A stretch of DNA of 63,844 nucleotides, filler included, from Rhabdomonas costata (taxonomy: Eukaryota), in the NCBI GenBank assembly GCA_019059605.1. It is 14 parts of 14 records of this genome, joined end to end, with 100 filler letters (N's around TTAATTAATTAA, not from the genome) between each part and the next. Parts side by side here need not be neighbours in the genome. Positions count along the whole stretch, not along the records: positions 22,909 to 27,381 come from JAHMHO010000239.1; positions 27,482 to 31,929 come from JAHMHO010000240.1; positions 32,030 to 36,515 come from JAHMHO010000241.1; 11 more parts are not named here. One strand, written 5' to 3'. The first letter of the stretch is position 1; each line of letters starts with the position of its first letter. The translations under genes and the position numbers were made by a program. Below the pieces are notes generated by a model, which had not been told where the DNA came from, did no database searches, and saw nothing but the letters and a program-made list of their open reading frames with translations. Below, one piece after another: positions 26,986 through 63,018 of the stretch.

Positions 26986-28041
26986 CTGGGTGAGGCACCC
27001 GCACAAAAATCAACACTTACCGCCCTGGTGGCCTGCCAACTAATCGAAATTCTCTTTTTGTGTGGCCAGCAAGATCCCAAGGCCCTCCAAAGGGCCCAAA
27101 ACGGGACTAAACCACCGGCAACTCCAGGAGTACTCAGGTACTTCCGTATGCTAACTAGCCTCGACAGAAAGAGGGACCGAGTTTGCAGATCAAGTGTATA
27201 CAACGCCCCAAAAGAGAAGGACTCTTCCGGATGATAGAAGAAGGCTCAGAGATGCAGCCAGTGCCTAGCTAGTGTAGTAAACAACAAAAATACCCGTGCC
27301 AGATCCTCCAGCTCTGTTCCCTTGGGGTGCATCCCTTGGGTCAGTCTCAAGGGGGGGGGGGGGTGGATTTGTTGGAATACTNNNNNNNNNNNNNNNNNNN
27401 NNNNNNNNNNNNNNNNNNNNNNNNNTTAATTAATTAANNNNNNNNNNNNNNNNNNNNNNNNNNNNNNNNNNNNNNNNNNNNTTTGTTGGTTACCATTTTT
27501 TGATTGATGGTAAAATAGAAGATTGTTGATTTCCACTGGCTAGATAGTTATATCTAAACATTAACATAAAAACTAGATTGTGAAAATCAGATAACCATTC
27601 GTCACGAAATGAATCATAACTATTAAAATTACGTATAGAATACATTTTTTGTAAATGTTTGTATACTGAAATTTGAACAGAAAAAGATATTACTTTTTTG
27701 TATCATGTGTAATTATTTTTTATACATTATTATGTTTTTTATTGTACAATAATTTTGTACAAATTGGATGAAGATATTTTCTTTCTCGTTTTGCGATTCG
27801 GGTTCTTGTGTATTTTTTTGTGTAACAATCATATTATAACCAAAATCACCTATATTTTCATTAAATGGTTCTCATTTTATCATTATATACAATCACATTA
27901 TTTTTTGGTTTTCAATATTGTTGTTTTCATTATTCTCGTGATTTGAAATATTCTGTGTTTGAGTTACATTATCTGTATTTTTATTTTTATTATCTGATTC
28001 ATTTTCTTTCAAAGTTTCTGCATAACGTTGTGTTAAGCATG

Positions 28042-29143
28042 TTATATTGTTATAAATACTTGTGATTCAATTTCAATTGCAATATTACGTAATATACCAT
28101 CAACTATTGTATTTTGTTGTTCAATTGTATATTTGTCACGATTATTTATAAAATTATATAGATTATCTAAAATATATTGAATAATAAAATATATTGATAG
28201 TATACCGATACGGATGTCGTTGATCGGACAAGTCTCGGAAACACCGACAAGCCTTGCGATGTCAGAAAGATGAGAGAGAGTTGTTCGAGACGTAAACACC
28301 GGTTTGTACGAAACACGTTGATTGTTCGTGTAGTTGTGGTTAAGAAACTGAAGCAACACACAACCAATAGCCCACACATCAGATGCGGATGTGATCACAC
28401 GACTGTACAGTTGCTTTTGCGCAATGTACCGATAGTCGTGGAATTCTTCGCTAATGAAGGCTCTTCATTCATTGTGTGAAATCCTCCAAGTTTCACAGTC
28501 CCATTTCGGAGAATAAAAATGTTCTCCGGTTTGATATTTCGCAACACCAAACCTGCACGATGGATGTAGAGCAACACATAAAGAAGCTGGTATATGATGT
28601 TCATTACCACCCAACCTCTTCTTGAAGCTCTCGACCTTCTGCAAAAAAAAGATTCACTAAAGTGTGCCCATAGTCACAAACCATGACCAACCGAGGCGAA
28701 AGAAGCACATTGTGAACAGACACAATGTTTGGATGTGTACCCAAATGAATCATCATCTCAATGATTCGAAGATTTCGGTTGTTTTGGCGAAGAGACGCAT
28801 CATCGAACAAGATTGCGCATTTTTCGTCTGTCAACTTGCATGTATTGCAGTGTGGGTCTTGTCCGATCTGATGGAGAACGGGAAATCCCAAAGTATGCAA
28901 CACAATTTGATCGTCGGACCAATTCGCACGTCTCTGAACGGTTGTCTGCTCGTTAGCCATCTCGATGAGCCTTTTTGATTGCGAAGGAGCAAATTGCAGT
29001 AAGAAGTTTTCTTGCCTGTAGTATCCAGTAATTATGTCATAAATCATACTCTGTAAATTAGACAATATCCTATGAGTTCTTTTTGTTCTATATTCATTAA
29101 ATATTCTTTTGAAATATGTTGAACCTACAACAGCTTTTTCCAT
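28042..29143 (-). pseudogene. Intronless, frameshifted Ser/Thr kinase (CMGC/MAPK-like) embedded in an AT-rich ORF
   Basis: Three consecutive frames give HPNIVSVHNVLL...MVCDY / IIYQLLYVLLYIHRAGLVLRNIKPENIFI...VKLGGF / AQKQLYSRVITSASDVWAIGCVL. HRD is replaced by LRN, DFG by GGF and APE by AQK, with frameshifts near 28610 and 28425. Confidence 0.85.
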
Positions 29144-29365
29144 GTGATTAATTCTTTATTTAATTTATATTCTTGTATTTCAATGTCATTGTCATTAAGT
29201 GAAGAATGAAAATAATCTGAATCAAATTCAGAATCACTGCAGAAGCCCCAGAAGATATCCTAAGAACAATGAAATTTGTTGCATATTGAAAATTCATTGT
29301 TCTAAAATATTTTTATACATGTTTGTTTATATATTAAATAATGTTAACTGTATTTTCTTTTTTAT

Positions 29366-29373
29366 AAAATTGA
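29366..29373 (+). promoter_or_regulatory. AAAATTGA motif (mimivirus-type early promoter candidate)
   Basis: Exact AAAATTGA in the AT-rich intergenic region, 30 nt before the ATG at 29404. It could also occur by chance in AT-rich DNA. Confidence 0.35.
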
Positions 29374-29555
29374 TTTCACAAACAAGAAAAAAGCAGTTTG
29401 CCAATGGCACACGCACTATTCTATTTAGCAAAGCACACGAGCAGTTTGCGTGCGCAGTACACCAGCGATGAAGAAGAGGAAGTAAAGGAGAAGGAAAGAG
29501 GCGCAACCATGGTCTGCGCTCAATGTCGGCCTTACCACAGATTGCTTACAGGCCT

Positions 29556-29948
29556 TCAAGCGACTTGTGTCTTGACGACAACGGATGTCGGTCGCTTGCC
29601 ATTATAAAACTGTTGCGTCGTCGAACCTTCCTTCGACTGCCAAGTGGCCAACGGGTCTTCTTTGTCTTCGATTTCGACTGCCCACGTCTCATCGTTGGTT
29701 TGGGCGATAAGACATTCGCGCAATTTGTAAGCCTTCTCTTGATCGGACATGTAAATTTCAATCTGCCAGAAAGGAAAGCTGGCTCTCATCCAAGACTCCG
29801 TATTGGACGTTACGTGCACTGCATTTCGGCACGGCAGATTACCAGTACAGAACTTCGCAATCCTCGTATTCGTATCGATCTTTGTCAATTCGACTTGCAT
29901 CGGTGTGTGGTGAGCAGGAAAGATGACAGAAATCACACAGCTCGTCAT
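29556..29948 (-). CDS. Hypothetical protein (130 aa) in a GC-richer islet
   Basis: ATG-initiated intronless ORF with protein-like composition; no family recognised. Confidence 0.4.
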   Translation of the reverse strand: MTSCVISVIFPAHHTPMQVELTKIDTNTRIAKFCTGNLPCRNAVHVTSNTESWMRASFPFWQIEIYMSDQEKAYKLRECLIAQTNDETWAVEIEDKEDPLATWQSKEGSTTQQFYNGKRPTSVVVKTQVA

Positions 29949-30067
29949 GGCTCTTGGTTTGTTAATGTAAAGAAAAGCGTTAGACGATTGATAGTTTTCT
30001 AATGATTAAAATAAGTTATATAGATTTTACAATTCATTATATTTTCAAGTTTTATAAATAGATCATT

Positions 30068-30114
30068 TAAATAGATCACATATTAACTTATACAGTTAAT
30101 ATGTGATCTATTTA
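30068..30114 (-). terminator. Perfect palindromic hairpin (21-bp stem, 5-nt loop)
   Basis: TAAATAGATCACATATTAACT-tatac-AGTTAATATGTGATCTATTTA, 14 nt downstream of the stop of ORF 30129-30560(-). Its geometry fits Mimiviridae hairpin-directed 3' end formation. Confidence 0.7.
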
Positions 30115-30128
30115 TTTAATATCTACAA

Positions 30129-30560
30129 TCATGAATGTATTATCTTAAAAATTTCAATCCAATTCTTATATTTATTAGCAATGAAACTGTGATTACTTTT
30201 ACAATTTTCTGTCATTATGATATTTTCTTTTCTTTTGGCATTACATAATTTAACCATAATTGACATTGATATAGGATCATAATGTTCTTTATTTATTGAA
30301 TGTAAATAGGTAAAGTCACCTCCTCCTACAGAATAAAAACAATTATAATATATGTTGTTTATATTTGCTGTTGTACAATAAGTATAATTTTTATACTTAT
30401 TGAGATATGTCTTATTCAATATTTTTTCATAATTTGATAAAAGTTTATTATAATCTCTTAGTGTACATACAATATTAGCATTACAATAAAACCAATTCTG
30501 TTGTTCTTTAATTCCATATTTTTTTATTTTCATATGGTATACTTTCATCTTTATGTTCAT
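30129..30560 (-). CDS. AT-rich hypothetical protein (virus-like ORFan, possibly truncated)
   Basis: 143-codon open frame in very AT-rich DNA, K/N/Y/I-rich, followed by the hairpin. Confidence 0.5.
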   Translation of the reverse strand: MNIKMKVYHMKIKKYGIKEQQNWFYCNANIVCTLRDYNKLLSNYEKILNKTYLNKYKNYTYCTTANINNIYYNCFYSVGGGDFTYLHSINKEHYDPISMSIMVKLCNAKRKENIIMTENCKSNHSFIANKYKNWIEIFKIIHS

Positions 30561-31056
30561 CCGATTGAAAACTTGAATTTTTCATACCTAACATGTTAAA
30601 AATATATTTTCTTATAAACTCATCTGTTTTCATACCACTTACAATATGTAATTATAATATGCATTTTTAATGGAATAAATGATGGTTTTCTTTTATTTGT
30701 TTTTTGTATCATTGTTTCAAAATCTAAAAATATCGTTTCATTTTTGTTTACTATTTTATTAAATAATTTTATTGGATTTAATCTAAAATATAATTCAGAT
30801 GCAAAATCATATATACCAGATGAATATACAAAATTTATCTTGTGTGTCTGTTAATTTTTTTGTGCTAAAATAAAAATTGCTAATGCAGTTATTGGTTTTG
30901 AACAAGAAAATATTCTAAATCTGGTTTGTTGTATAACTTTCATATCTTTCAAATTTTTTCCCTATATTTACTATTTACACCATCTACAATTTTTGTTATT
31001 TTTCCATTTAGATTGTGTTTATTTTCCAGTTATTTGAATATAAATTCATATATCAT

Positions 31057-31451
31057 ATGAATTATGATATAAATGAGTATATATCAGAATTATTAGAATT
31101 TACAGTGAGATTAGATTTACATGGAAATACAACAACAAGAACAAAAATAAGAAACAGTAGAGAAAGAGTAGAGACAATAAGTGTATATGAGAATTTTGTT
31201 GTAAATACGGCATTTAAACAAGCGATATGTGATGTGTCAGGATATAGAAAATGTGATATATTTTTACAGGATGAAGGATTCGGACTATTTGATATGAAAA
31301 ATTTTAGTAATATAAATAAGATATTTGAATGTTACAGACGGAATTCCAAATATACATTTATAGCATCACATGAAGAACAATTAAAAACAATTGTGGTGAT
31401 GAGATAACTGTTATAAAAGATGCGGATGGATTTTCAAGAGCAATTTTTTAA
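31057..31451 (+). pseudogene. SbcC/Rad50-type ABC ATPase C-terminal fragment, frameshifted
   Basis: ISVYENFVVNTAFKQAI (decayed LSG signature), DIFLQDEGFGLFD (Walker B / D-loop) and FIASHEEQLK (H-loop). After a frameshift near 31387 it continues NCGDEITVIKDADGFSRAIF*. The N-terminal part is missing. Confidence 0.8.
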
Positions 31452-32420
31452 ATAGCAAAATTATTATTTTATTAAAACAATAAAATATTTATAAAAAATA
31501 TTTTACATTCACAGAATGTAATTCTTTAAAATCACATTCATAGAATATAATTGTAAATACAAGAGAATGATATATAGATTAAAAGCTAATAATATGTTGT
31601 TTACCATAAGTATCAAAGAGACCAGTACCTTTAGAAACAGATGAGTAAGAAAATATTCAATGAAGCAACATTATTTATTAAAATTTGTATCCATTAAATG
31701 TTTTATAAAATCAGAAATTAAATTATATTTTTGTGAATGTTGAAAATCCTGGATTTTTCGGAATTTTAGACGTTATTTTTGGATTCGATTTTGTCCATGA
31801 ATATAAACCATATCAATAACAATTTATTTGTTTTACTATTTAAGACCTATTTTTACATTTTGAAGGATAAAATCGAATCCAAAAATAACGTCTAAAATTC
31901 CGAAAAATCCAGGATTTTCAACACCCACANNNNNNNNNNNNNNNNNNNNNNNNNNNNNNNNNNNNNNNNNNNNTTAATTAATTAANNNNNNNNNNNNNNN
32001 NNNNNNNNNNNNNNNNNNNNNNNNNNNNNGGTGGGGTGGTGCTGGCACGGCGACGCCTGTAGATACCGGTGCTGCCCTTTCCGAAGAAAAGCTCCAAGGG
32101 GCGTTCCCATGAGAAAAGGTTCCAGCCCCCCAAGGAAGGAGTGTGGAATCGCAGAGACCTGAGACGCAATGGAACAATTCAGGTAGCCGCTGGAAATGAG
32201 CAGCTGCGCGACAAAGGCCCGGGACCCGTGAGGCTGAAGGGAGGTTACCAGATGTGGAACGTTCGGTGGTGAGCCGGTTTCGGTTCCCCACGACCGTTCG
32301 CTCCAACGGCACCTCTCGCGAGCACCCTTGGCCAACAGCGCGTGCCAACCAAGTAACCAGGCAACCAGGCAACAGCCAGTGCGCAACACACTCACACTCT
32401 TTCTTTTTCTCACGATTCAG

Positions 32421-51565: not shown

Positions 51566-52832
51566 GCTGCTTGCAAACACTCACAAATCTCTCTTCGCTA
51601 CGAACTCGTGTTTTCGGAGCAGCCCTCGTTGTGATCTCGGGTTTGCACTCTTTGACTTCCTTCGGGTTTTGCGGAGGTTTGGACCACTTGAATAAGTCCG
51701 TACTCTGCTCAGAGAGCAAGCGCTTCTTGGCAGGAGAGTTACAATAAGGGAAGTCTGTGAAGCGGAATGTTTCCTCACAAATCTGGTATCACGGAGAGCA
51801 CTCTTTCTCGATCTTGTACCTCTCCGGCTCTCCTTCCTTTCCTCTACTCAGTTGGTTGCTGTATCTTTTCATTGTATAACGACCTTCTATGCATTCCTAT
51901 CACTGACCTCCTTTCTGTTTCCTCTTTCAATGACAGGCATCGCTGTGGACACGTTATTTGGATAACTGCGGGGTGTGTGAAACACGTGCCGAAACTGGGA
52001 TGATTTTTCGTGAATAGTAATTTTTCCGGGGGGGGTCAGACTTTTGCATTTCCTTTTTTTTCTTTTGCTTTTGTTTTCCATTTTCGTCTTTGGCAACCGC
52101 GTCATCCCACACCAAATCGATAGGTTCTCAAGTTTCTTTGAGCAAACTGTGCAAATGAAAACCTTCGTCCTTTTCTGTCAAGATAGAATGAGCAACTTTC
52201 TGGTTCTGGTTATTCAGTTTTAAGTCTTCACGGGCAATAACAGGTTTCAGTGGCAGCGTCGTTGCCTTCCGGCTTGACAGAAGAAGACAAGCAAAGTGGA
52301 ATAATCACACAAAGTGGTTACTGGGATTTGCAACAAACTCCGTTGCCACGAAGAATCCGGTCCCATTACCAGTCACATTAAGCGAGATTCGGTTATGCCC
52401 CGAGAGAGATTCCGCTTCATGCGAACATATTTTCCTTTTTTATCGACTATAGAATCAAAAAAAAGTGCCCAAAAGTTTCTTCTGTGTGCGTTTGTGTTTG
52501 GGGTTAAAATGTGCCATTGAGGTTCCCAAGAACCTCCGCCCAGGAGCAAAGGGGTTGTTTGTACGCCCAGAAGCGGTCAGGCAATGGGAGAGTATTCGAA
52601 ATCCCGGTTGTGGCAGAAAAGATCTCCACGAAAAAATGCCTTCTGCTCGAAGTGTGTGTTGTGTGTATGTTTCTACCCAGCGTGCTTCTTGCCTCTCTTT
52701 GAATTTCCCTTGACCTGTTCACACTTCAGCTCAGTACTTTTTTCTTCCTTGTTTGAACCTTATTTGTGGAGGATTTTGCATGCCTCTTTGTTTTGTCTTG
52801 CTTTAGCCCACCACTCTCCTCTCTTTCTGGGA

Positions 52833-54090
52833 ATGTCGAAGGTGGCCGTGTATGTGTGCGCCGTAACAATTGTTACCATCGCGGTTCTCTTTCTTTTCCC
52901 ACTGATCCAAACCAGACCGACCTCTGAAAGTTCTTCGGCAACCGAGACCACGACAACCAATGAAATAATTTCTCCGACCTCCCCAACCTCCCCGATCTCC
53001 CCACCCACTGAAACAGCACCGGACGAGCCCGCTGAACGCGGCCCACCACCGGTCAAGCGCAATCATCCCAACATGAAGATCCCTGCAGACATCGGCACGC
53101 TGTGCGAGATGCTGCCAGGAGGTAAGCCCAGGGGATCCCCTCGCAACTTGTACGACGCCTTCCCTTTCAACGATGAATTCGATGTTCTTCGGATTCGGCT
53201 GGAGGAGCTGAAGACAGAGGTGCACACGCACATCCTGGGGGAGTCCACGATGACGTACGCGGAGCGTCGCAAACCGCTGCGGTTCAAGGCGGTGCAGAGC
53301 AACTTCTCCGAGTATAGAATTCGGCGGGTGGAGCCCGACCTGAGTCAGTTCCCCTCTGGAGACTTCTGGGCTCGTGAGAGCGGCCAGAGGCAGCTCACGG
53401 CCGCCGCGGGCCTGGATGACGCCGATCCCACCGACGTGGTAATAATGTCCTGATTGTTTTTTTCCCTGAGCTGGGACTACAATTTGAACAATCGGGAACT
53501 TTGCAATGGTGATAACTGCTTGGCAACGCACGAAGTCCCGACCGCGTGCTCGACCTTTGTGAACTTTCCAGACATAGCAGCATTATTCCCCAGTGTGAAC
53601 CTCACGAACCCTCTGTTTTCTTGCATGCGTCTTTGCCGAACGGCCGTCAATCATAAAGAAAATGCCATTGTCCAACTTATGGGACAACATCTGCTCCTCA
53701 CCACCTGTATCACCTTTTACTTCCCCTATTGTCACATGACATGCGGAAACCCACGGAGCCTCTTGATTCCTCCTTTACATTGGTTGTTTGTCTTTCTCTT
53801 CACCTCCGCCAAGCTCTCGTACATTGACCCTTTCCTTCAGGTCATTGTATCTGATGTTGACGAGATCCCGTCGCGGCGCTTCGCCTCTGCCCTGCGGTGG
53901 TGCCAATTCTACAAGCGTGGCCTGATCAGCCTGGACATGCCGATGTACCATTACCACATGGGGTGTTTTGCGCACCCAGTCCACTTTGCGGTGGCTGCGA
54001 CGGTGGGGGAGTTCCGACGCCGCCCCGGCAACCTCCGCGATGGCTTCGACGCGTTTCCTCGCTCGGTTTATCCCTCTGGGTGGCACCTTG
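52833..54090 (+). CDS. Family 17 glycosyltransferase (MGAT3/GnT-III-like), type II membrane protein, first 2 exons
   Basis: Exons 52833-53438 and 53841-54090 give an N-terminal signal anchor, an S/T/P-rich stem, YDAFPFNDEFDVLRIRLEEL, ESTMTYAERRKPLRF, WARESGQR, DVVIVSDVDEIPS (DxD motif) and GWHLG. Confidence 0.92.
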
Positions 54091-54752
54091 GTATGAGTTG
54101 ATGACCATCCCCTCTGTTTGAACACGATCCAAATGGGCCGCCTTCGTGATGCGACGCAAGTCGCGGCTAAATATGCAATGTGAAATGGTTTTATAGCTGC
54201 ATCAGTGTGGTTTTTTCTGGACGCCTAGCAAAGCATTCTGCTGATACTACGGATGTGTTGGTGCCTCTCGTAGACCTCAGGGGTGCATCTGGTAAATCCT
54301 GATACTTGCACCGAGACGCTACGACAGCACGAATTGGAGAAACCAAATGCTTCACTTCCGTTATAAAGGAGTGCTGAGTTGATTCGTGGTGTTGTCTATG
54401 TAGACACTTTGTTCTCGTTCTTTTTGCAAACGGCTTTAACGAGAGAAACTTGTTCTCTGTCCCTCTGGTTGCACCACGCACACATATGCTGTCGGCACAC
54501 TTTTGGGTGCTTCCAGCAAACACGGCCAGCAACGTACAACAGTGGTCAGAATTGGTATCTAGGGCATTCCAGCCCACTCCGCAGCCTGTATGCAATATTC
54601 ATTGAGTATGCAACCCTGAAAATTCTGAAGTGGGTACCCCACCCACANNNNNNNNNNNNNNNNNNNNNNNNNNNNNNNNNNNNNNNNNNNNTTAATTAAT
54701 TAANNNNNNNNNNNNNNNNNNNNNNNNNNNNNNNNNNNNNNNNNNNNGGGGG

Positions 54753-57700
54753 GATGTGGTGGGCTGGCTGCGGGCTGGCGTGACCCGACTGCGTCTCGCC
54801 CTTAGGGAAAAGTGTCGCCAGGCATCCGCCCTATATACATCCACACACGTGACACTTAAACAAATCGGTTGACGTCGCAGAGTCACAGAGGTAGAGGTGG
54901 TGAGCCGGAACCCCGTGGCACTCCGGCTTTAATCGATATTTCTTGATCGCGAAAACTCATTGTAGCTATGGGACCCAACCCCTCCCCTCCCCACGCACAT
55001 TCCGGTCTTTTCTTTTCAGTGAATACCTTCCTTATAAATGCCTGGTTTTGGTTTCAGGATTGTAAAAACCACTCAAACGCCCTCCCCCCCGGAGAGGGGA
55101 GTCGAGTGAAGCTGCGCCTCTCCCATGGCCACACATATCGTCTTTATTGTTCAAGTGTCTGCTGCGGGTCTCAACCTCGGCTTTTCCTCTCGCCCCCCTA
55201 CAGGTTCTTCTGGCGATCCATCGTGGATGCTCCGCGTTGCAGCATGCCGCGAAGTCCAGCATACCTCATATTCTTTTGGTGTGAGGGCTCAGAAAGAGGG
55301 GGTACTCTCCTTCCTTTGTCCTGTGCGTGCGCTTATTTCCTGTGTTGTTTCTGTGGCCAATGCAAGGGACTGCTTTTGCTTGCGACACAAGTGCCCAAGA
55401 GTTGGAAATTCCATTGGTCGCTGTGATTTTCTCGACATTCTTTTGGGTTCTTGCTTTTCCTTGCAGCATCCCTTCCCTTTTTGCCTTTCACTGGCTTTTC
55501 ATCAGTTTCTTCGGATGTCCACTCTGCTGGTGACCCTCGGCGGGATCTTGCCGTATCTCATCGGTGTGCCCCTTCCTCCGTCTTTTCATGCAACGCTCGT
55601 TGTGCCTCTCACACTTATTACTTCGAGCGAAACTTGGCATCCATTGTGGTGCGGTTGCCTGTGTTCACAGGGGTGGCGATGGAGCTCTGCTTATCTGTGG
55701 TCACCAAGACAGCGGTCTCGTACCAGTGCCCGTGCTTCCCCCTCCTGGAGGTGTGACACGTACACGTGCACGTCACCCCTTCGCTGGCATTGCACGTAAG
55801 CACAGTGGTGGTTGACCAGCGGAGAACTGATGAATGGCCTCTGCCCCAGAGACTGCAACCGAAAAGATAGAGGCAAGACTTGGATTGCTGTCTGGTATTC
55901 CTGCTGTTTTTCTTATTTTTCAATCTTTATCGGATTGAAATCTGTGCATAAACAAGTGGGGAAATTATACTTCAAAAAGAAATCAAAGAATCAAATCCCT
56001 GGCCAACTGAAAAGTTTTCCTTCGTTCTTGGGCAGTCAAGTACTTCTCTCGACTACTGTGAGCAGTGAAGGTGAGTTGGTATTGTTGGGGAATCGGTTGC
56101 GGCAATTGCGGCACAAATGCGGCCTTCGTTCCTCCCAATATTACTTAGAGGCTGTCCAATCGCCGCCAGCTCGAAGGACTTGCAAGGTTGAACGCTCTAA
56201 TTTCCACAGTTTGCGGCACATTGTTGCTGTGTTGTTTTTGCGCCCACAGACGTGGATGGTCGGAGTTGTGTATTTCAAGGTGTGTCAGGATCTCTTCTTC
56301 TTCAGTGAGGCTGTCGCGCATTAGCTTGAGGCGCTGTGTGCTAAACGTTGCATTTAGCCTATTTGCGCTGAAGCTGCGGAGGACCTGTTGAAGAATTCAT
56401 TGTGAGGGCCTCCCGCGAACGCGATTGGTTGGATGGTACTGTTCCTGTTTGTTTCGCATTTAAGATTTGGATCCGGGTGACGATCATGCTGCCGGGATTA
56501 TTCCAAACCCCATGGAATGTGTACTGGGCCAAAGTATGCTTCCACGCCTTCTCTCACTTGGGTGTATTGTGAGCCCCCTCCTCAACCCCCTCCACACACA
56601 AACCGTACTTCCTGCACTTTCACCTGCACTTCTCTTAGCTGTGATATTCATTGTAATCACTGATCAATGTGAATGGAGTCTTGTAAAATCTGGAGGGTTC
56701 CCGTTACCAATGGTACCCTGGTAAAACTGATTCCCGTCTGAAGCCCAAGAATAGTAAATAGCTCGGGTTTCAAATGCCTGGGATCTCGGGGCCCCGCTAT
56801 TTCAGTGGTCCCAGGGGACACGTGCATCGCTGGTTTGGGTGTCGCGTTGGTTTGAATAGGAAACGTATTCTTGAGACAGCAGAGCTTCCTTCTCACCCCC
56901 GTCCATTAAAAGTGCCATTACCCCTCCCCAAGTCAAGCGCTCAGCTGTTGTCCCCACAGCCTGAATGGTATTGCTCACCCGTTTGCGACTATGGACTTGG
57001 TGTTGATGTTACCTGATTGTGTGTGCTGTGCAGCTTTGTAAACAACATATTAACAGGGAGTCACATAGTTCAAAGATGGCGCTCACTGNNNNNNNNNNNN
57101 NNNNNNNNNNNNNNNNNNNNNNNNNNNNNNNNNNNNNNNNNNNNNNNNNNNNNNNNNNNNNNNNNNNNNNNNNNNNNNNNNNNNNNNNNNNNNNNNNNNN
57201 NNNNNNNNNNNNNNNNNNNNNNNNNNNNNNNNNNNNNNNNNNNNNNNNNNNNNNNNNNNNNNNNNNNNNNNNNNNNNNNNNNNNNNNNNNNNNNNNNNNN
57301 NNNNNNNNNNNNNNNNNNNNNNNNNNNNNNNNNNNNNNNNNNNNNNNNNNNNNNNNNNNNNNNNNNNNNNNNNNNNNNNNNNNNNNNNNNNNNNNNNNNN
57401 NNNNNNNNNNNNNNNNNNNNNNNNNNNNNNNNNNNNNNNNNNNNNNNNNNNNNNNNNNNNNNNNNNNNNNNNNNNNNNNNNNNNNNNNNNNNNNNNNNNN
57501 NNNNNNNNNNNNNNNNNNNNNNNNNNNNNNNNNNNNNNNNNNNNNNNNNNNNNNNNNNNNNNNNNNNNNNNNNNNNNNNNNNNNNNNNNNNNNNNNNNNN
57601 NNNNNNNNNNNNNNNNNNNNNNNNNNNNNNNNNNNNNNNNNNNNNNNNNNNNNNNNNNGTGCAGACTGGCACCAGGCAAGCTGCTTGATTATGAAGTATG

Positions 57701-59281
57701 TGAAAGAGCCAAAGCTTTCCATCCGATGCAAGAGTTCACCGTTTGCACGTGAATATTTTGTGATTCCGAGGAGAACATTGTTGCCCAATGTGACACCCTG
57801 TACCATCCCCGATGGGCTGTACATGGTCTCGTGGTCATCGACTGAAGAGTGGCACCTTTCACGCAACTTTTGCCGCTGACTGGCCGGAGTTGATAGTACA
57901 GCTTCATCGGTTCCAGGGGACTGCTGGATGCTCACAGGTGGTGTTCCCGATTGCTGCCACCACGCTTTGCTTCCTAAGCGTACCTTACTTCGTGTACAAG
58001 ATCGTTCTCCCGAACGTGGGTGTGCATCTTGAGGAAGGAGGAAGGAAGGAAAGAGGGGCGATCGGGATTGTGAAACCGTTGCCGTTGCCAGGCAAAAAGT
58101 GGGGTGGCATCACTACGGCACGCAGAAGGGCAGCGGAACGAGGAAAGGGCAGATGTCGTGTCCGCTGTAGTGCAGGTGAAGCAGGCCAAAGAAAAAAAGA
58201 GTAGTGCAGTGAATGCATCTTCGTGCTGGCGTTTTACGTGTGCCCACTTTGCGAGCGAACTTGCTGTTGGATTATTCTCAAATTCGGGCCAAGAGATAAT
58301 TTCTCAAGGCTTGGCTTCGTCACGGGCTTTCACTGAGTAGCCACACTCGCCCGCCTGCTTTGGAAAAGAGCCTTCTCATCTTTTTGTGCCTTCAGTGGAC
58401 CTGCCTGTCGGCGAGGCCAGCGTGCTGCATCATCTGAGCTACCCCGCCATAATGGCAGGATACTTCCTCGTTCGAGGTGTGTGTGTGTGTGTGTGTGTGT
58501 GCGTGGTGTGTGTGCTTACTTGAGTTGCAGATCTGCCTGGGGAGAAAGCGAAAATGCCGTTTGCCTTGATTCATGAGGCTCATATGGTGAAAACTTGTTT
58601 TGGGTTGTGACTTTTTGAGATGGCATGGGCAGACACTTGTGTGTGTTCTGAAACCAGTGATACATCACAGTATGCTGACCTTCGACTTCCATTTTCCGCA
58701 GAAATGTGGCAGTTTGTTTTTTTGGGGGAGACTCATCAGGTTCAGATTTCATCAAGTGTCGTCTTGGTCCGCGGGCATCATAAACGCACTCATCGAAACG
58801 TTTTCCCAATGAAGTTCAAGCCTTCTGAGCCCCCTCTGACTGTAAGGTAGGGGAGTTTATTTTTCACCGACCCACACTCCCGCATCCGTTCATTAGCTCG
58901 CATGTTATCAAGGGGTGTCCACAAGAAGTACACGCTCCTAGGGCAGGACTGCTCTGAGAAGGAAATTTCCAACTCACTAGGAAAAAATTCAGAAACGACA
59001 ACATCAACAGGTCAAGTCGCGACCTGTGACGCACGTATAATATGGGTTCGGTTCTTCAGTCGGCTTCCTTTTTCTCGATCCCGCCGCTCTTGGCAATGTC
59101 AGTGAGGAATGGGGTAGTCTCCGAGGTCTCCCTCTCTTTGCCTCTTCATCTTGCTTTCTCCTCCTCTGCAGTGTGTGTCCTGCTAGCCAACTCTGTGTCC
59201 CCAGCGATGGACGGGTTCTGCCGGAGGCTCCGTGATCAGCTGTATCTCACCGAGATCAAGCTGCAGAACTCCTCCGTTTAA
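54753..59281 (+). CDS. MARCHF6: ER membrane E3 ubiquitin ligase MARCH6/Doa10, C-terminal exons
   Basis: Exons 54753-54821 (GC donor), 55204-55278, 55506-55563, 55671-55750, 56250-56279, 56465-~56518, (assembly gap), 57938-58019, 58396-58476 and 59172-59281. They give GILPYLIGVAMEL...PCFPLLETWMVGVVYFK...FPIAATTLCFLSVPY...YPAI...RRLRDQLYLTEIKLQN, matching the Doa10 C-terminal element. Confidence 0.82.
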
Positions 59282-62454: not shown

Positions 62455-63018
62455 GGCGCCCACTATCCCCGTTTTCCCGAGAGGTTTTTTCACCAGAGCT
62501 GCTACCAGGACAGCGCCCTGTCTGAAAGTGAAAGTGTTCATGAGCGATATTGCGGCTCGGATACAGAAGAAGGCGTGTGCTCGCGGGCGGGCGAACCTTT
62601 GCAGACTACCTAACAAATGCCCTCGAAGGCATTACTTTGCAACCATGCAGAGACTACCTCCAAGGAAGGCGAGCCCTGCCCCGGTCCTAGAACCTGGGTG
62701 TACTGTGTGCGGTCTCGGAACCGTAAGAGACCCAAGGCGGTTCACAACCGCTCGACCTACACAGACTACCCAGCATATCCACCAGGGCGTGTACTCCGCC
62801 AACCTAACCAGCGGAGACTTCCCTAAGGGCAGGCGTCGTGAGACTGGCCGGTTAGGCCATTGCCACCTCCCCCATTACGAGGCTCCATCCGACTTCGGAC
62901 TGAGGACTCAACCACGACCCAACCAGGTGCCGTCACCATGACTTGATATGACTCATATATTTCGTAAACGTGGACCGCATCCTGTCTGGTCCGACAAATG
63001 AATGTTTTTATTTCGCAG

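What the first reader, a model, noticed from the sequence alone, without database searches (positions are those of the whole stretch)
27482..31929. Decayed giant-virus-like contig in a euglenozoan-type assembly (candidate endogenous viral element)
Seen: a sharp compositional outlier, intronless, with a frameshifted SbcC/Rad50 C-terminus, K/N-rich ORFans, a perfect 21-bp/5-nt-loop hairpin just 3' of an ORF and an AAAATTGA motif. Established: Mimiviridae form mRNA 3' ends at such hairpins, use AAAATTGA early promoters, and several encode SbcC-like ATPases. Inference: both recognisable genes are broken, which fits an integrated, decaying relic of an Imitervirales-like virus better than an active infection.
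Basis: partly seen in the sequence, partly recalled or inferred. Interest (0 to 1): 0.75.

Follow-up and report, generated by a model that had tools for sequence, protein, structure and literature searches.

The report
Decayed giant-virus DNA fragment, linkage unproven
One short, very AT-rich contig in this assembly is a graveyard of broken genes whose closest intact relatives sit on giant-virus-like DNA, so it is most likely a dead remnant of a giant virus rather than a live infection, but its attachment to the host genome could not be tested.

Summary
The window is 14 separate contigs of about 4.4 kb joined by N/TTAATTAATTAA spacers. The finding is one whole contig (27482-31929) with 30% GC, against 47-56% for the other 13.

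The observation largely holds. The C-terminal SbcC/Rad50 remnant, its frameshift and the perfect 21-bp hairpin are real. AAAATTGA occurs once, which is no more than chance. The "ORFan" at 30129-30560 is not an ORFan. It is the tail of a shattered class-C beta-lactamase-family gene.

The beta-lactamase relic falls inside a tight family found only on AT-rich, gene-dense, giant-virus-like contigs (99% support). Its end branch is about seven times the median. The SbcC piece is the last ~130 residues of a ~1200-residue Mre11/Rad50 fusion protein of the Mimivirus R555 type.

A third relic is a protein kinase that lacks all three catalytic residues and is read in three frames. It lies in one of two GC-rich islands (44-48% GC) set in a 23% GC background.

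Viral origin and decay are well supported. Integration into the host is plausible but unproven, because no genome or reads were available. Giant-virus relics of this kind are already known, including in Euglena gracilis. Interest is moderate to low.

The parts
27482..31929 (.). The whole contig (4448 nt), bounded on both sides by assembly spacers. It has an AT-rich background (22.6% GC) with two GC-rich islands.
27490..28066 (-). K/N/E-rich ORF debris on the minus strand (27490-27702, 27713-27871, 27893-28066) with no recognisable family. The leftmost piece runs off the contig end.
   Evidence: Only a weak PCIF1_WW hit (E 0.016, below cut-off) and no PDB match.
28042..29155 (-). Protein-kinase relic read in three frames (28604-29155, 28395-28673, 28042-28464). 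The beta3 Lys, HRD Asp and DFG Asp are all replaced (AILF, LRN, GFH). The domain is cut short after subdomain IX/X.
   Evidence: Pfam Pkinase E 3.3e-8 and 3.1e-4; PDB alignments; frames; no close relative found.
28205..29010 (.). GC island 1 (44% GC), which holds the kinase core. Its edges are sharp, within about 50 nt. In the same open frame, GC3 falls from 0.51 to 0.02 at about 28206.
29366..29373 (+). Single AAAATTGA, about 30 nt upstream of a 67-codon ATG ORF. It is not above chance.
29385..29960 (.). GC island 2 (48% GC).
29556..29951 (-). Open frame of 131 codons from ATG inside island 2. It has no relatives and no confident fold, so whether it is a real gene is open.
   Evidence: pLDDT 37.6
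30068..30114 (.). Perfect hairpin with 21-nt arms and a 5-nt loop, 15 nt downstream of the stop of the beta-lactamase-family relic.
30129..30956 (-). Class-C beta-lactamase-family (PF00144) pseudogene. Its pieces lie in three frames: 30813-30956, 30650-30931 (with an in-frame stop and a 21-residue gap), 30520-30651 and 30129-30581. SxxK is present (SCSK). The stretch carrying the family's YNN motif is deleted, and the family's HEGGG reads SVGGG.
31012..31451 (+). Remnant of a fused Mre11/Rad50 (SbcDC) gene. Only the last ~130 of ~1200 residues remain. Five residues are missing at the signature motif (SGYE reads SVYE region). Walker B (DEGFG) and the H-loop (ASH) are kept. The last 18 residues lie in another frame (31395-31451).
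31732..31929 (.). Inverted repeat with 73-nt arms (92% complementary, core of 51 nt perfect) and a 52-nt spacer. The outer end of the right arm is the contig end.
   Evidence: z = -15.7. No exact match in IMG/VR.

Best explanation
The contig is dead DNA derived from an AT-rich giant virus (Nucleocytoviricota, most likely Imitervirales/Mimiviridae-like). It carries what is left of at least two viral genes: a class-C beta-lactamase-family serine hydrolase and a fused Mre11/Rad50 nuclease-ATPase. One transcript-end-type hairpin also survives. No gene on it can work.

The hydrolase has lost frame, a catalytic-motif stretch and its start region. The Mre11/Rad50 gene has lost about 90% of its length. 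A kinase on the contig lacks every catalytic residue.

The most likely history (inferred) runs as follows. Viral DNA entered a cellular genome. It was no longer under selection. It then eroded by deletions, small indels and rearrangements, and became interleaved with two fragments of GC-richer DNA, one of which is a kinase fragment.

Shown: the virus-type relatives, the breakage, the mosaic composition and the hairpin. Inferred: endogenisation, the identity of the host and the order of events.
For: Beta-lactamase-family relic:
- It matched 15 proteins at E<=1e-3; the best had 57% identity and E 5.5e-31.
- All four frame pieces line up along the family.
- In a tree of 63 rows, the relic and 33 close relatives form one side of a branch with 99% SH-aLRT, away from 29 distant beta-lactamases. 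The relic's end branch is 1.08 against a median of 0.15.
- The 22 close-relative loci have 18-34% GC.
- One close relative is an IMG/VR contig of 41.6 kb that CheckV rates 6% complete.
- Flanks of relatives encode IleRS (822 bits), Erv1/Alr, EsV-1-7 repeats, UCH, DnaJ, thioredoxin, NifU, RING, T5orf172 and DEAD helicases. The genes are densely packed and intron-free.
- In one genome each of 185,579 prokaryote species, the nearest relatives reach only 22-35% identity (23 loci).

SbcC fragment:
- 367 hits at E<=1e-3.
- 81 of the 152 hit proteins examined carry the N-terminal Mre11-like domain, and only 6 long ones lack it. Metallophos was found in 14 of the 30 top hits scanned.
- The family has 450 confirmed loci in IMG/VR from one query and 27 from another, including a contig labelled GVMAG.
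- The fusion was described from Mimivirus R555 (PMC3175470).

Decay:
-.

Mosaic:
-.
Against: - No physical link to GC-rich host DNA was shown. No genome or reads were available, and there is no sequence shared with the other 13 contigs.
- The dinucleotide signature of island 1 lies outside all 1000 host fragments sampled. Island 2 lies within the host range (22% of fragments at least as far). So the islands are not demonstrably host DNA.
- No hallmark giant-virus gene (capsid, PolB, A32) is on the contig.
- Capsid_NCLDV was not found in the 5 relative records searched. That search rang nowhere, including in its controls.
- The SbcC fragment pairs only with an unlabelled metagenome protein (P0001, 97% local support). 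No IMG/VR row lies among its nearest 67 leaves.
- The window fragment itself found no IMG/VR relative, and neither did P0001 or P0071.
- Only 7 of 107 viral loci matched the fragment by tblastn, at 24-35% identity.
- Fused Mre11/Rad50 genes also occur sporadically in eukaryotes, including AT-rich Dictyostelium, and on bacterial plasmids (PMC3175470, section 6).
Confidence: 0.6

Rival explanations
1. The contig comes from a free or episomal giant virus that was sampled together with the organism. It would be a degenerate, gene-poor stretch, for example near a genome end, where giant viruses carry pseudogenes and captured host DNA.
For: - There is no demonstrated link to host DNA.
- The AT background (22.6% GC) equals that of the free-virus-like relatives.
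- The contig ends in a long inverted repeat. That could in principle belong to a terminal repeat or hairpin end.
- GC islands could be host DNA captured by the virus.
Against: - All three recognisable genes in 4.4 kb are dead. By contrast, relatives' contigs are packed with intact ORFs: 18 ORFs of 90 aa or more in 21 kb of L108.
- The beta-lactamase relic's end branch is about seven times the family median, which points to long neutral decay.
Confidence: 0.15
2. The relic is endogenous, but it sits in the genome of another organism in the sample (prey, contaminant or symbiont) and not in that of the main organism.
For: - The islands have 44-48% GC against a host median of 52%.
- Island 1 has a dinucleotide signature outside the host range.
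- Only 1 of the 14 contigs in the window is of this kind.
Against: - Island 2 is within the host range.
- Coding sequence is expected to differ from the mostly non-coding host contigs used as the yardstick.
- Nothing else in the window points to a second organism.
Confidence: 0.12
3. The sequence is ordinary cellular DNA of an AT-rich eukaryote or bacterium and has no viral history.
For: - Fused Mre11/Rad50 genes exist in some eukaryotes and on plasmids (PMC3175470, section 6).
- The closest SbcC relatives carry no label.
Against: - Prokaryote genomes hold nothing close to either relic.
- The beta-lactamase family's neighbours are eukaryote-type genes without introns at virus-like density. One contig is classed viral by IMG/VR.
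Confidence: 0.06
4. The breaks and the mosaic are artefacts. The breaks would be sequencing indel errors and the mosaic a chimeric assembly of unrelated reads.
For: - The assembly is highly fragmented and contains N gaps.
- The composition changes are abrupt.
Against: - The damage includes a missing ~1050-residue N-terminus, a 21-residue and a ~16-residue internal deletion, a 5-residue deletion at the ATPase signature motif and replaced catalytic residues. Indel errors cannot produce these.
- An open frame runs across both edges of island 1, with strong codon periodicity on the AT side (GC3 0.02).
Confidence: 0.05

Closest known systems
Giant endogenous viral elements (GEVEs) and smaller nucleocytovirus-derived relics in protist genomes, e.g. 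the eight GEVEs of Euglena gracilis (PMC12455990; abstract and Results read, supplements not seen)
   Same: - AT-rich DNA (there 25-37% GC) in a ~51% GC genome.
- Signs of erosion: truncation, deletion and invasion by other DNA.
- Many ORFs without known relatives.
   Different: - Those elements are 86-311 kb, carry hallmark genes, have >90% coding density and belong to Asfuvirales.
- This is a 4.4-kb fragment with no hallmark gene and no intact recognisable gene.
- Its relatives look Mimiviridae-like (IleRS neighbour, R555-type fusion).
- Its host and its linkage to host DNA are not established.
Mimivirus R555-type Mre11/Rad50 (SbcD/SbcC) fusion proteins (PMC3175470)
   Same: - The C-terminal ATPase lobe aligns over ~115 residues. 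Walker B (DEGFG) and the H-loop are present.
- Most full-length relatives carry the N-terminal Mre11-like phosphoesterase.
   Different: - Only the last ~130 residues remain.
- The signature motif is partly deleted and the tail is frameshifted.
- The nearest relative (P0001, 46%) is an unlabelled metagenome fragment.
AT-rich clade of class-C beta-lactamase-family (PF00144, 'CubicO group peptidase') genes on giant-virus-like metagenome contigs (L108-L129, P0153-P0167)
   Same: - 47-57% identity over every part of the protein that survives.
- The relic nests in the clade with 99% support.
   Different: - Members of the clade are intact and 61-88% identical to the reference member P0153.
- This copy is in four frame pieces, with a stop, two deletions and a long branch.
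Mimivirus 'hairpin rule' for mRNA 3' ends and the AAAATTGA early promoter (recalled from the literature, not read here)
   Same: One perfect 21-bp hairpin sits 15 nt after a stop codon.
   Different: - Only one of about five gene relics has such a hairpin.
- The one relative contig examined has none comparable.
- The promoter motif is at chance frequency.

Membership tests
Mre11/Rad50 (SbcDC) fusion protein, R555 type | C-terminal Rad50/SbcC ATPase lobe (signature motif, Walker B, H-loop) | tested here: inconclusive
   Walker B (DEGFG) and ASH are present. The signature region has lost 5 residues relative to P0001. Homology is clear (E 1.3e-20).
Mre11/Rad50 (SbcDC) fusion protein, R555 type | N-terminal Mre11-like phosphoesterase, N-terminal ATPase lobe and coiled coil in one intact ORF | tested here: not met
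   tblastn with the full-length P0002 and P0005 finds only residues ~1046-1160 / 1080-1199 on the contig.
Class-C beta-lactamase / PF00144 serine hydrolase | SxxK active-site motif | tested here: met
   FSCSKP aligns with the family's invariant FSCSKP.
Class-C beta-lactamase / PF00144 serine hydrolase | Second (Y-x-N type) and third motif, and an uninterrupted reading frame | tested here: not met
   The stretch with the family's YNNT is deleted. The family's HEGGG reads SVGGG. There are three frame changes and one in-frame stop.
Active eukaryotic-type protein kinase | beta3 Lys, HRD Asp, DFG Asp, and a single frame | tested here: not met
   The residues read AILF, LRN and GFH at the aligned positions. 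The domain is spread over three frames. The N-lobe alignment is weak (E 0.46).
Endogenous giant-virus element (GEVE/EVE) | Genes of nucleocytovirus descent | tested here: met
   The beta-lactamase relic lies inside a clade found on giant-virus-like contigs. The SbcC relic belongs to the R555-type family. The label rests on gene content and IMG/VR/CheckV classing, not on named reference viruses.
Endogenous giant-virus element (GEVE/EVE) | Physical continuity with host chromosomal DNA | not testable with these tools
The GC islands are suggestive only.
Endogenous giant-virus element (GEVE/EVE) | Hallmark genes (capsid, PolB, A32, VLTF3) on the element | tested here: not met
   None of the 11 ORFs scanned matches such a family. 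The contig is only 4.4 kb.
Mimiviridae regulatory signals | Hairpins at most gene 3' ends; AAAATTGA enriched upstream of genes | tested here: inconclusive
   There is one strong hairpin. The motif is at chance. Relative L108 has no comparable hairpin.

The most novel reading that the evidence does not exclude
The contig is a true host-virus chimera in a euglenozoan nuclear genome. On this reading it is a relic of a Mimiviridae-like virus, a lineage different from the Asfuvirales elements already reported in Euglena. Fragments of host genes (a kinase and an unknown ORF) were spliced into viral reading frames, which leaves a GC3 jump from 0.51 to 0.02 within one open frame. This would record a second, independent giant-virus lineage that infected and endogenised in Euglenozoa. 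It would also preserve junctions that show how host DNA fills breaks in a decaying viral insert.
Probability: 0.25. Interest if true: 0.55.

Novelty: new member of a known kind. Interest (0 to 1): 0.35.

Why it matters
Relics like this are the only trace of past giant-virus infections in lineages for which few or no viruses have been isolated.

Suppose the contig is nuclear and the organism is a euglenozoan. Then a Mimiviridae-like relic would stand beside the Asfuvirales-type elements described in Euglena gracilis and the single isolated virus of the group, Bodo saltans virus (named in PMC12455990, Introduction).

For annotation, the lesson is to flag such contigs as viral debris. They should not be treated as contamination or as host genes.

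The sharp GC/AT junctions inside open frames are a small, concrete place to study how viral inserts are patched and eroded.

Tried and rejected
Tools not available or without result:
- The whole genome and sequencing runs were not available.
- Rfam over the whole window gave no match at gathering score, so there is no RNA marker for the host.

Searches that found no close relative:
- IMG/VR held no close relative of the two window fragments, of P0001 or of P0071.
- Kinase N-terminal piece: no relative at E<=0.01 among longer proteins. The Atlas gave only generic kinase or unnamed clusters.
- 131-residue ORF of island 2: no word-sharing relative, no Pfam or NCBIfam hit, only a weak Nudix-type PDB hit (E 0.079), no Atlas hit, and a fold at pLDDT 37.6. 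That is too poor to search with.
- tblastx of the contig against all fetched loci found nothing outside the two known relics except low-complexity matches.

Tests that were uninformative:
- Capsid_NCLDV search in 5 relative records found nothing, and the tool's controls did not ring either.
- The SbcC tree (206 rows, 148 columns, FastTree) was too poorly resolved to place the fragment beyond its pairing with P0001.
- Short direct repeats at the island edges were looked at by eye in the sequence. They were judged no longer than expected by chance and were not pursued.

Other:
- The exact core of the contig-end inverted repeat was not found in IMG/VR.
- Reading the breaks as another genetic code was rejected. 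The relatives' alignment continues in a different frame after each break.

Full report
WHAT THE WINDOW IS

The window is not one piece of DNA. It is 14 contigs of 4415-4582 nt joined by spacers of N...TTAATTAATTAA...N. The finding covers exactly one contig, 27482-31929 (4448 nt).

Its GC content is 0.299. The other 13 contigs have 0.473-0.564. They are mostly free of recognisable genes: 3 of 16 long ORFs scanned had any Pfam hit at E<=0.01 (two GT17 pieces and a weak Usp). One tRNA was found, and there was no Rfam match at gathering score.

COMPOSITION

The contig is a mosaic, not uniformly AT-rich.
- The background has 22.6% GC.
- Island 1 (28205-29010) has 44% GC.
- Island 2 (29385-29960) has 48% GC.
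- The island edges are sharp, within about 50 nt.
- Host 700-nt windows range from 40% to 62% GC, with a median of 52%.

The dinucleotide signature does not settle where the islands came from. Island 1 is farther from the pooled host contigs than all 1000 size-matched host fragments. Island 2 is within range, with 22% of fragments at least as far. The yardstick is mostly non-coding DNA, so this test is weak either way.

GENE RELIC 1: BETA-LACTAMASE FAMILY (minus strand, about 30129-30956)

In fact it matches PF00144 proteins strongly: 15 hits at E<=1e-3, best 57% identity and E 5.5e-31.

Aligned with 11 full-length relatives, four window pieces in three frames tile the whole protein (tblastn map).
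- The SxxK motif is kept (FSCSKP).
- An in-frame stop and a 21-residue gap follow it.
- The stretch that carries the family's YNNT is missing.
- The family's HEGGG reads SVGGG.
- The first ~55 residues are barely recognisable.

In a tree of 63 rows, the relic and 33 close relatives sit on one side of a branch with 99% SH-aLRT, away from 29 distant beta-lactamase-family sequences. The relic's end branch is 1.08 against a median of 0.15. This is the pattern expected for a copy that has drifted without selection.

WHAT THE RELATIVES OF RELIC 1 ARE

- The 22 close loci (L108-L129) have 18-34% GC.
- One (L108) is an IMG/VR contig of 41.6 kb that CheckV rates 6% complete, which implies a very large genome.
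- L108 carries 18 ORFs of 90 aa or more in 21 kb. They include DEAD and ResIII helicases, UCH, DnaJ, thioredoxin, NifU and an S33 hydrolase.
- I scanned 64 flanking ORFs chosen from 10 of the longer of the 21 close metagenome loci. They include Erv1/Alr, a protein with 14 EsV-1-7 repeats, RING, T5orf172/MUG113, Nudix, DDE_3 and TnpB-like transposases, LRR proteins and an isoleucyl-tRNA synthetase (TIGR00392, 822 bits).
- Dense, intron-free, eukaryote-flavoured genes at ~20% GC, with a tRNA synthetase, are what Mimiviridae-like viruses look like. That last link is recalled knowledge, not a test.
- I found no capsid gene in 5 records, but that search rang nowhere, controls included, so it says nothing.
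- In one genome each of 185,579 prokaryote species, the nearest relatives reach only 22-35% identity (23 loci, mostly Bacteroidota).

GENE RELIC 2: MRE11/RAD50 FUSION (plus strand, 31012-31451)

Pfam gave nothing. PDB and NCBIfam gave weak but concordant SbcC C-terminal hits (E 0.03 and 0.0012).

The exhaustive HMMER search gave 367 proteins at E<=1e-3. The best were P0001 (205 aa, 46% identity, E 1.3e-20) and P0002 (1182 aa, 39%). The match always lay at the extreme C-terminus of proteins of ~1000-1200 residues.

Most relatives are fused forms.
- 14 of the 30 top hits scanned carry an N-terminal Metallophos domain.
- By an iterated search, 81 of 152 hits carry the Mre11-like N-terminus, 65 are short fragments and only 6 long ones lack it.
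- This is the fused Mre11/Rad50 family first noticed in Mimivirus R555 (PMC3175470; abstract and section 6 read).
- That paper also lists sporadic members in eukaryotes (moss, Dictyostelium, Polysphondylium, a diatom, Micromonas), Firmicutes plasmids and a Bacillus phage.
- The family is common in IMG/VR: 450 of 453 pattern matches were confirmed with P0005, and 27 of 30 with P0002. Many lie on contigs of 50-320 kb, and one contig is labelled GVMAG.

On the contig only the last ~130 residues exist. Five residues are missing at the signature motif. Walker B and the H-loop are intact.

The final 18 residues continue in another frame. Their likeness to relatives' tails is modest. The score was reached by 2 of 500 shuffles for P0002 and P0003, by 16 for P0010 and by 22 for P0001. 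It was not significant for four others.

Upstream, where ~1050 residues should be, lies the start region of relic 1 on the other strand.

LIMITS OF THE SBCC EVIDENCE

- The fragment's own nearest neighbours carry no viral label.
- In a 206-row FastTree of 148 columns, it pairs with P0001 (97% local support).
- No IMG/VR row lies among its nearest 67 leaves. The first enclosing group with IMG/VR rows holds 162 of 206 rows.
- Only 7 of 107 viral loci match the fragment by tblastn, at 24-35% identity.
- P0001 and P0071 have no close IMG/VR relative.
- P0001 has none in prokaryote genomes either.
The beta-lactamase relic carries that argument.

GENE RELIC 3: KINASE (minus strand, 28042-29155)

Three overlapping frames carry consecutive parts of a protein-kinase domain (Pfam Pkinase E 3.3e-8 and 3.1e-4; frames).

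At the aligned positions the catalytic residues are replaced.
- HRD reads LRN and DFG reads GFH.
- The beta3 lysine reads L in a weak alignment (E 0.46).
- The domain stops after subdomain IX/X.
- No close relative was found.

The kinase core fills GC island 1, but the open frames run on into AT-rich DNA at both ends. On the 3' side, GC at third codon positions drops from 0.51 to 0.02 within one open frame. The same third positions are shared with an antisense frame.

I read this as a fragment of a GC-richer gene sitting inside what was an AT-rich coding region. The direction of the event is not known. Possibilities are host DNA filling a break in viral DNA, capture by the virus, or gene conversion.

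ISLAND 2

Island 2 holds a 131-codon ATG ORF on the minus strand and an overlapping 176-codon frame on the plus strand. The minus-strand ORF has no relatives and no confident fold. Whether it is a gene is open.

HAIRPIN AND MOTIF

The 21-bp/5-nt hairpin is perfect and far beyond chance. It sits 15 nt after the stop of relic 1, which fits the Mimivirus 'hairpin rule' (recalled). It is the only one of its kind on the contig. The 21 kb of relative L108 show nothing comparable, the best being 18 nt at 89% in low-complexity AT. AAAATTGA is at chance. These signals add little.

CONTIG END

A 73-nt inverted repeat (92% complementary, core of 51 nt perfect, 52-nt spacer; z = -15.7) ends exactly at the last base of the contig. 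So the repeat may be longer in reality. It has no other copy in the window and no exact match in IMG/VR. It could be a foldback or MITE-like element at which the assembler stopped, or a larger palindrome. This is unexplained.

INTERPRETATION

Viral descent of the AT-rich part is well supported, mainly by relic 1. I put it at about 0.85.

Non-functionality is about as certain as sequence can make it. The damage includes large deletions and lost catalytic residues, so sequencing error cannot explain it.

Such a density of dead genes is unlike the intact, packed relatives. Together with the interleaved GC-richer fragments, it makes a relic inside a cellular genome the best reading. The alternative of a degenerate stretch of a free virus, or a relic in a co-sampled organism, cannot be excluded without reads. 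The overall confidence in 'endogenous, decayed, giant-virus-derived' is 0.6.

COMPARISON AND NOVELTY

Endogenous giant-virus DNA in protists is a known phenomenon. In Euglena gracilis, eight elements of 86-311 kb are described, with 25-37% GC against a ~51% GC genome. All were placed in Asfuvirales, and one 25%-GC outlier may come from a distinct lineage (PMC12455990; abstract and Results read, supplements not seen).

The present fragment would at most be a further, small, hallmark-free member of this kind, possibly from a Mimiviridae-like lineage. That would be of some interest if the organism is a euglenozoan, which I did not establish.

The scan's earlier notes held nothing on this genome or on similar sequence.

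Noticed in passing
window 31732-31929: A 73-nt-arm inverted repeat (core of 51 nt perfect) ends exactly at the contig end. It could be a foldback or MITE-like element or part of a larger palindrome. It has no second copy in the window and no exact match in IMG/VR.
   Followed up: partly
window 28042-28206 versus 28207-28464 (minus strand): Within one open frame, third-position GC jumps from 0.51 to 0.02. This looks like a recombination or insertion junction inside a reading frame.
   Followed up: partly
window 52521-54101 (+): Two adjacent same-frame ORFs on a GC-rich contig both match glycosyltransferase family 17 (profile positions 56-179, then 176-214). This suggests one gene interrupted by a single in-frame stop.
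   Followed up: no
window 57089-57669: A 581-N gap lies inside a contig, so the contigs are scaffolds. The low GC value for 57001-58000 in the profile is an artefact of the Ns.
   Followed up: yes
window 62700-62775 (-): This is the only tRNA in the window, tRNA-His (GTG).
   Followed up: no
L109:8732-11062: In one relative the beta-lactamase-family gene is a 777-residue protein with two PF00144 stretches (a tandem fusion). P0154 is 982 residues.
   Followed up: no
L112:3131-4102, L122:4040-5062, L122:1046-3028: DDE_3 transposases and a TnpB/Cas12f-like ORF lie next to the beta-lactamase-family gene on giant-virus-like contigs.
   Followed up: no
window 30056-30113: The decamer AAATAGATCA occurs three times around the hairpin: once just upstream and once in each arm.
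   Followed up: no
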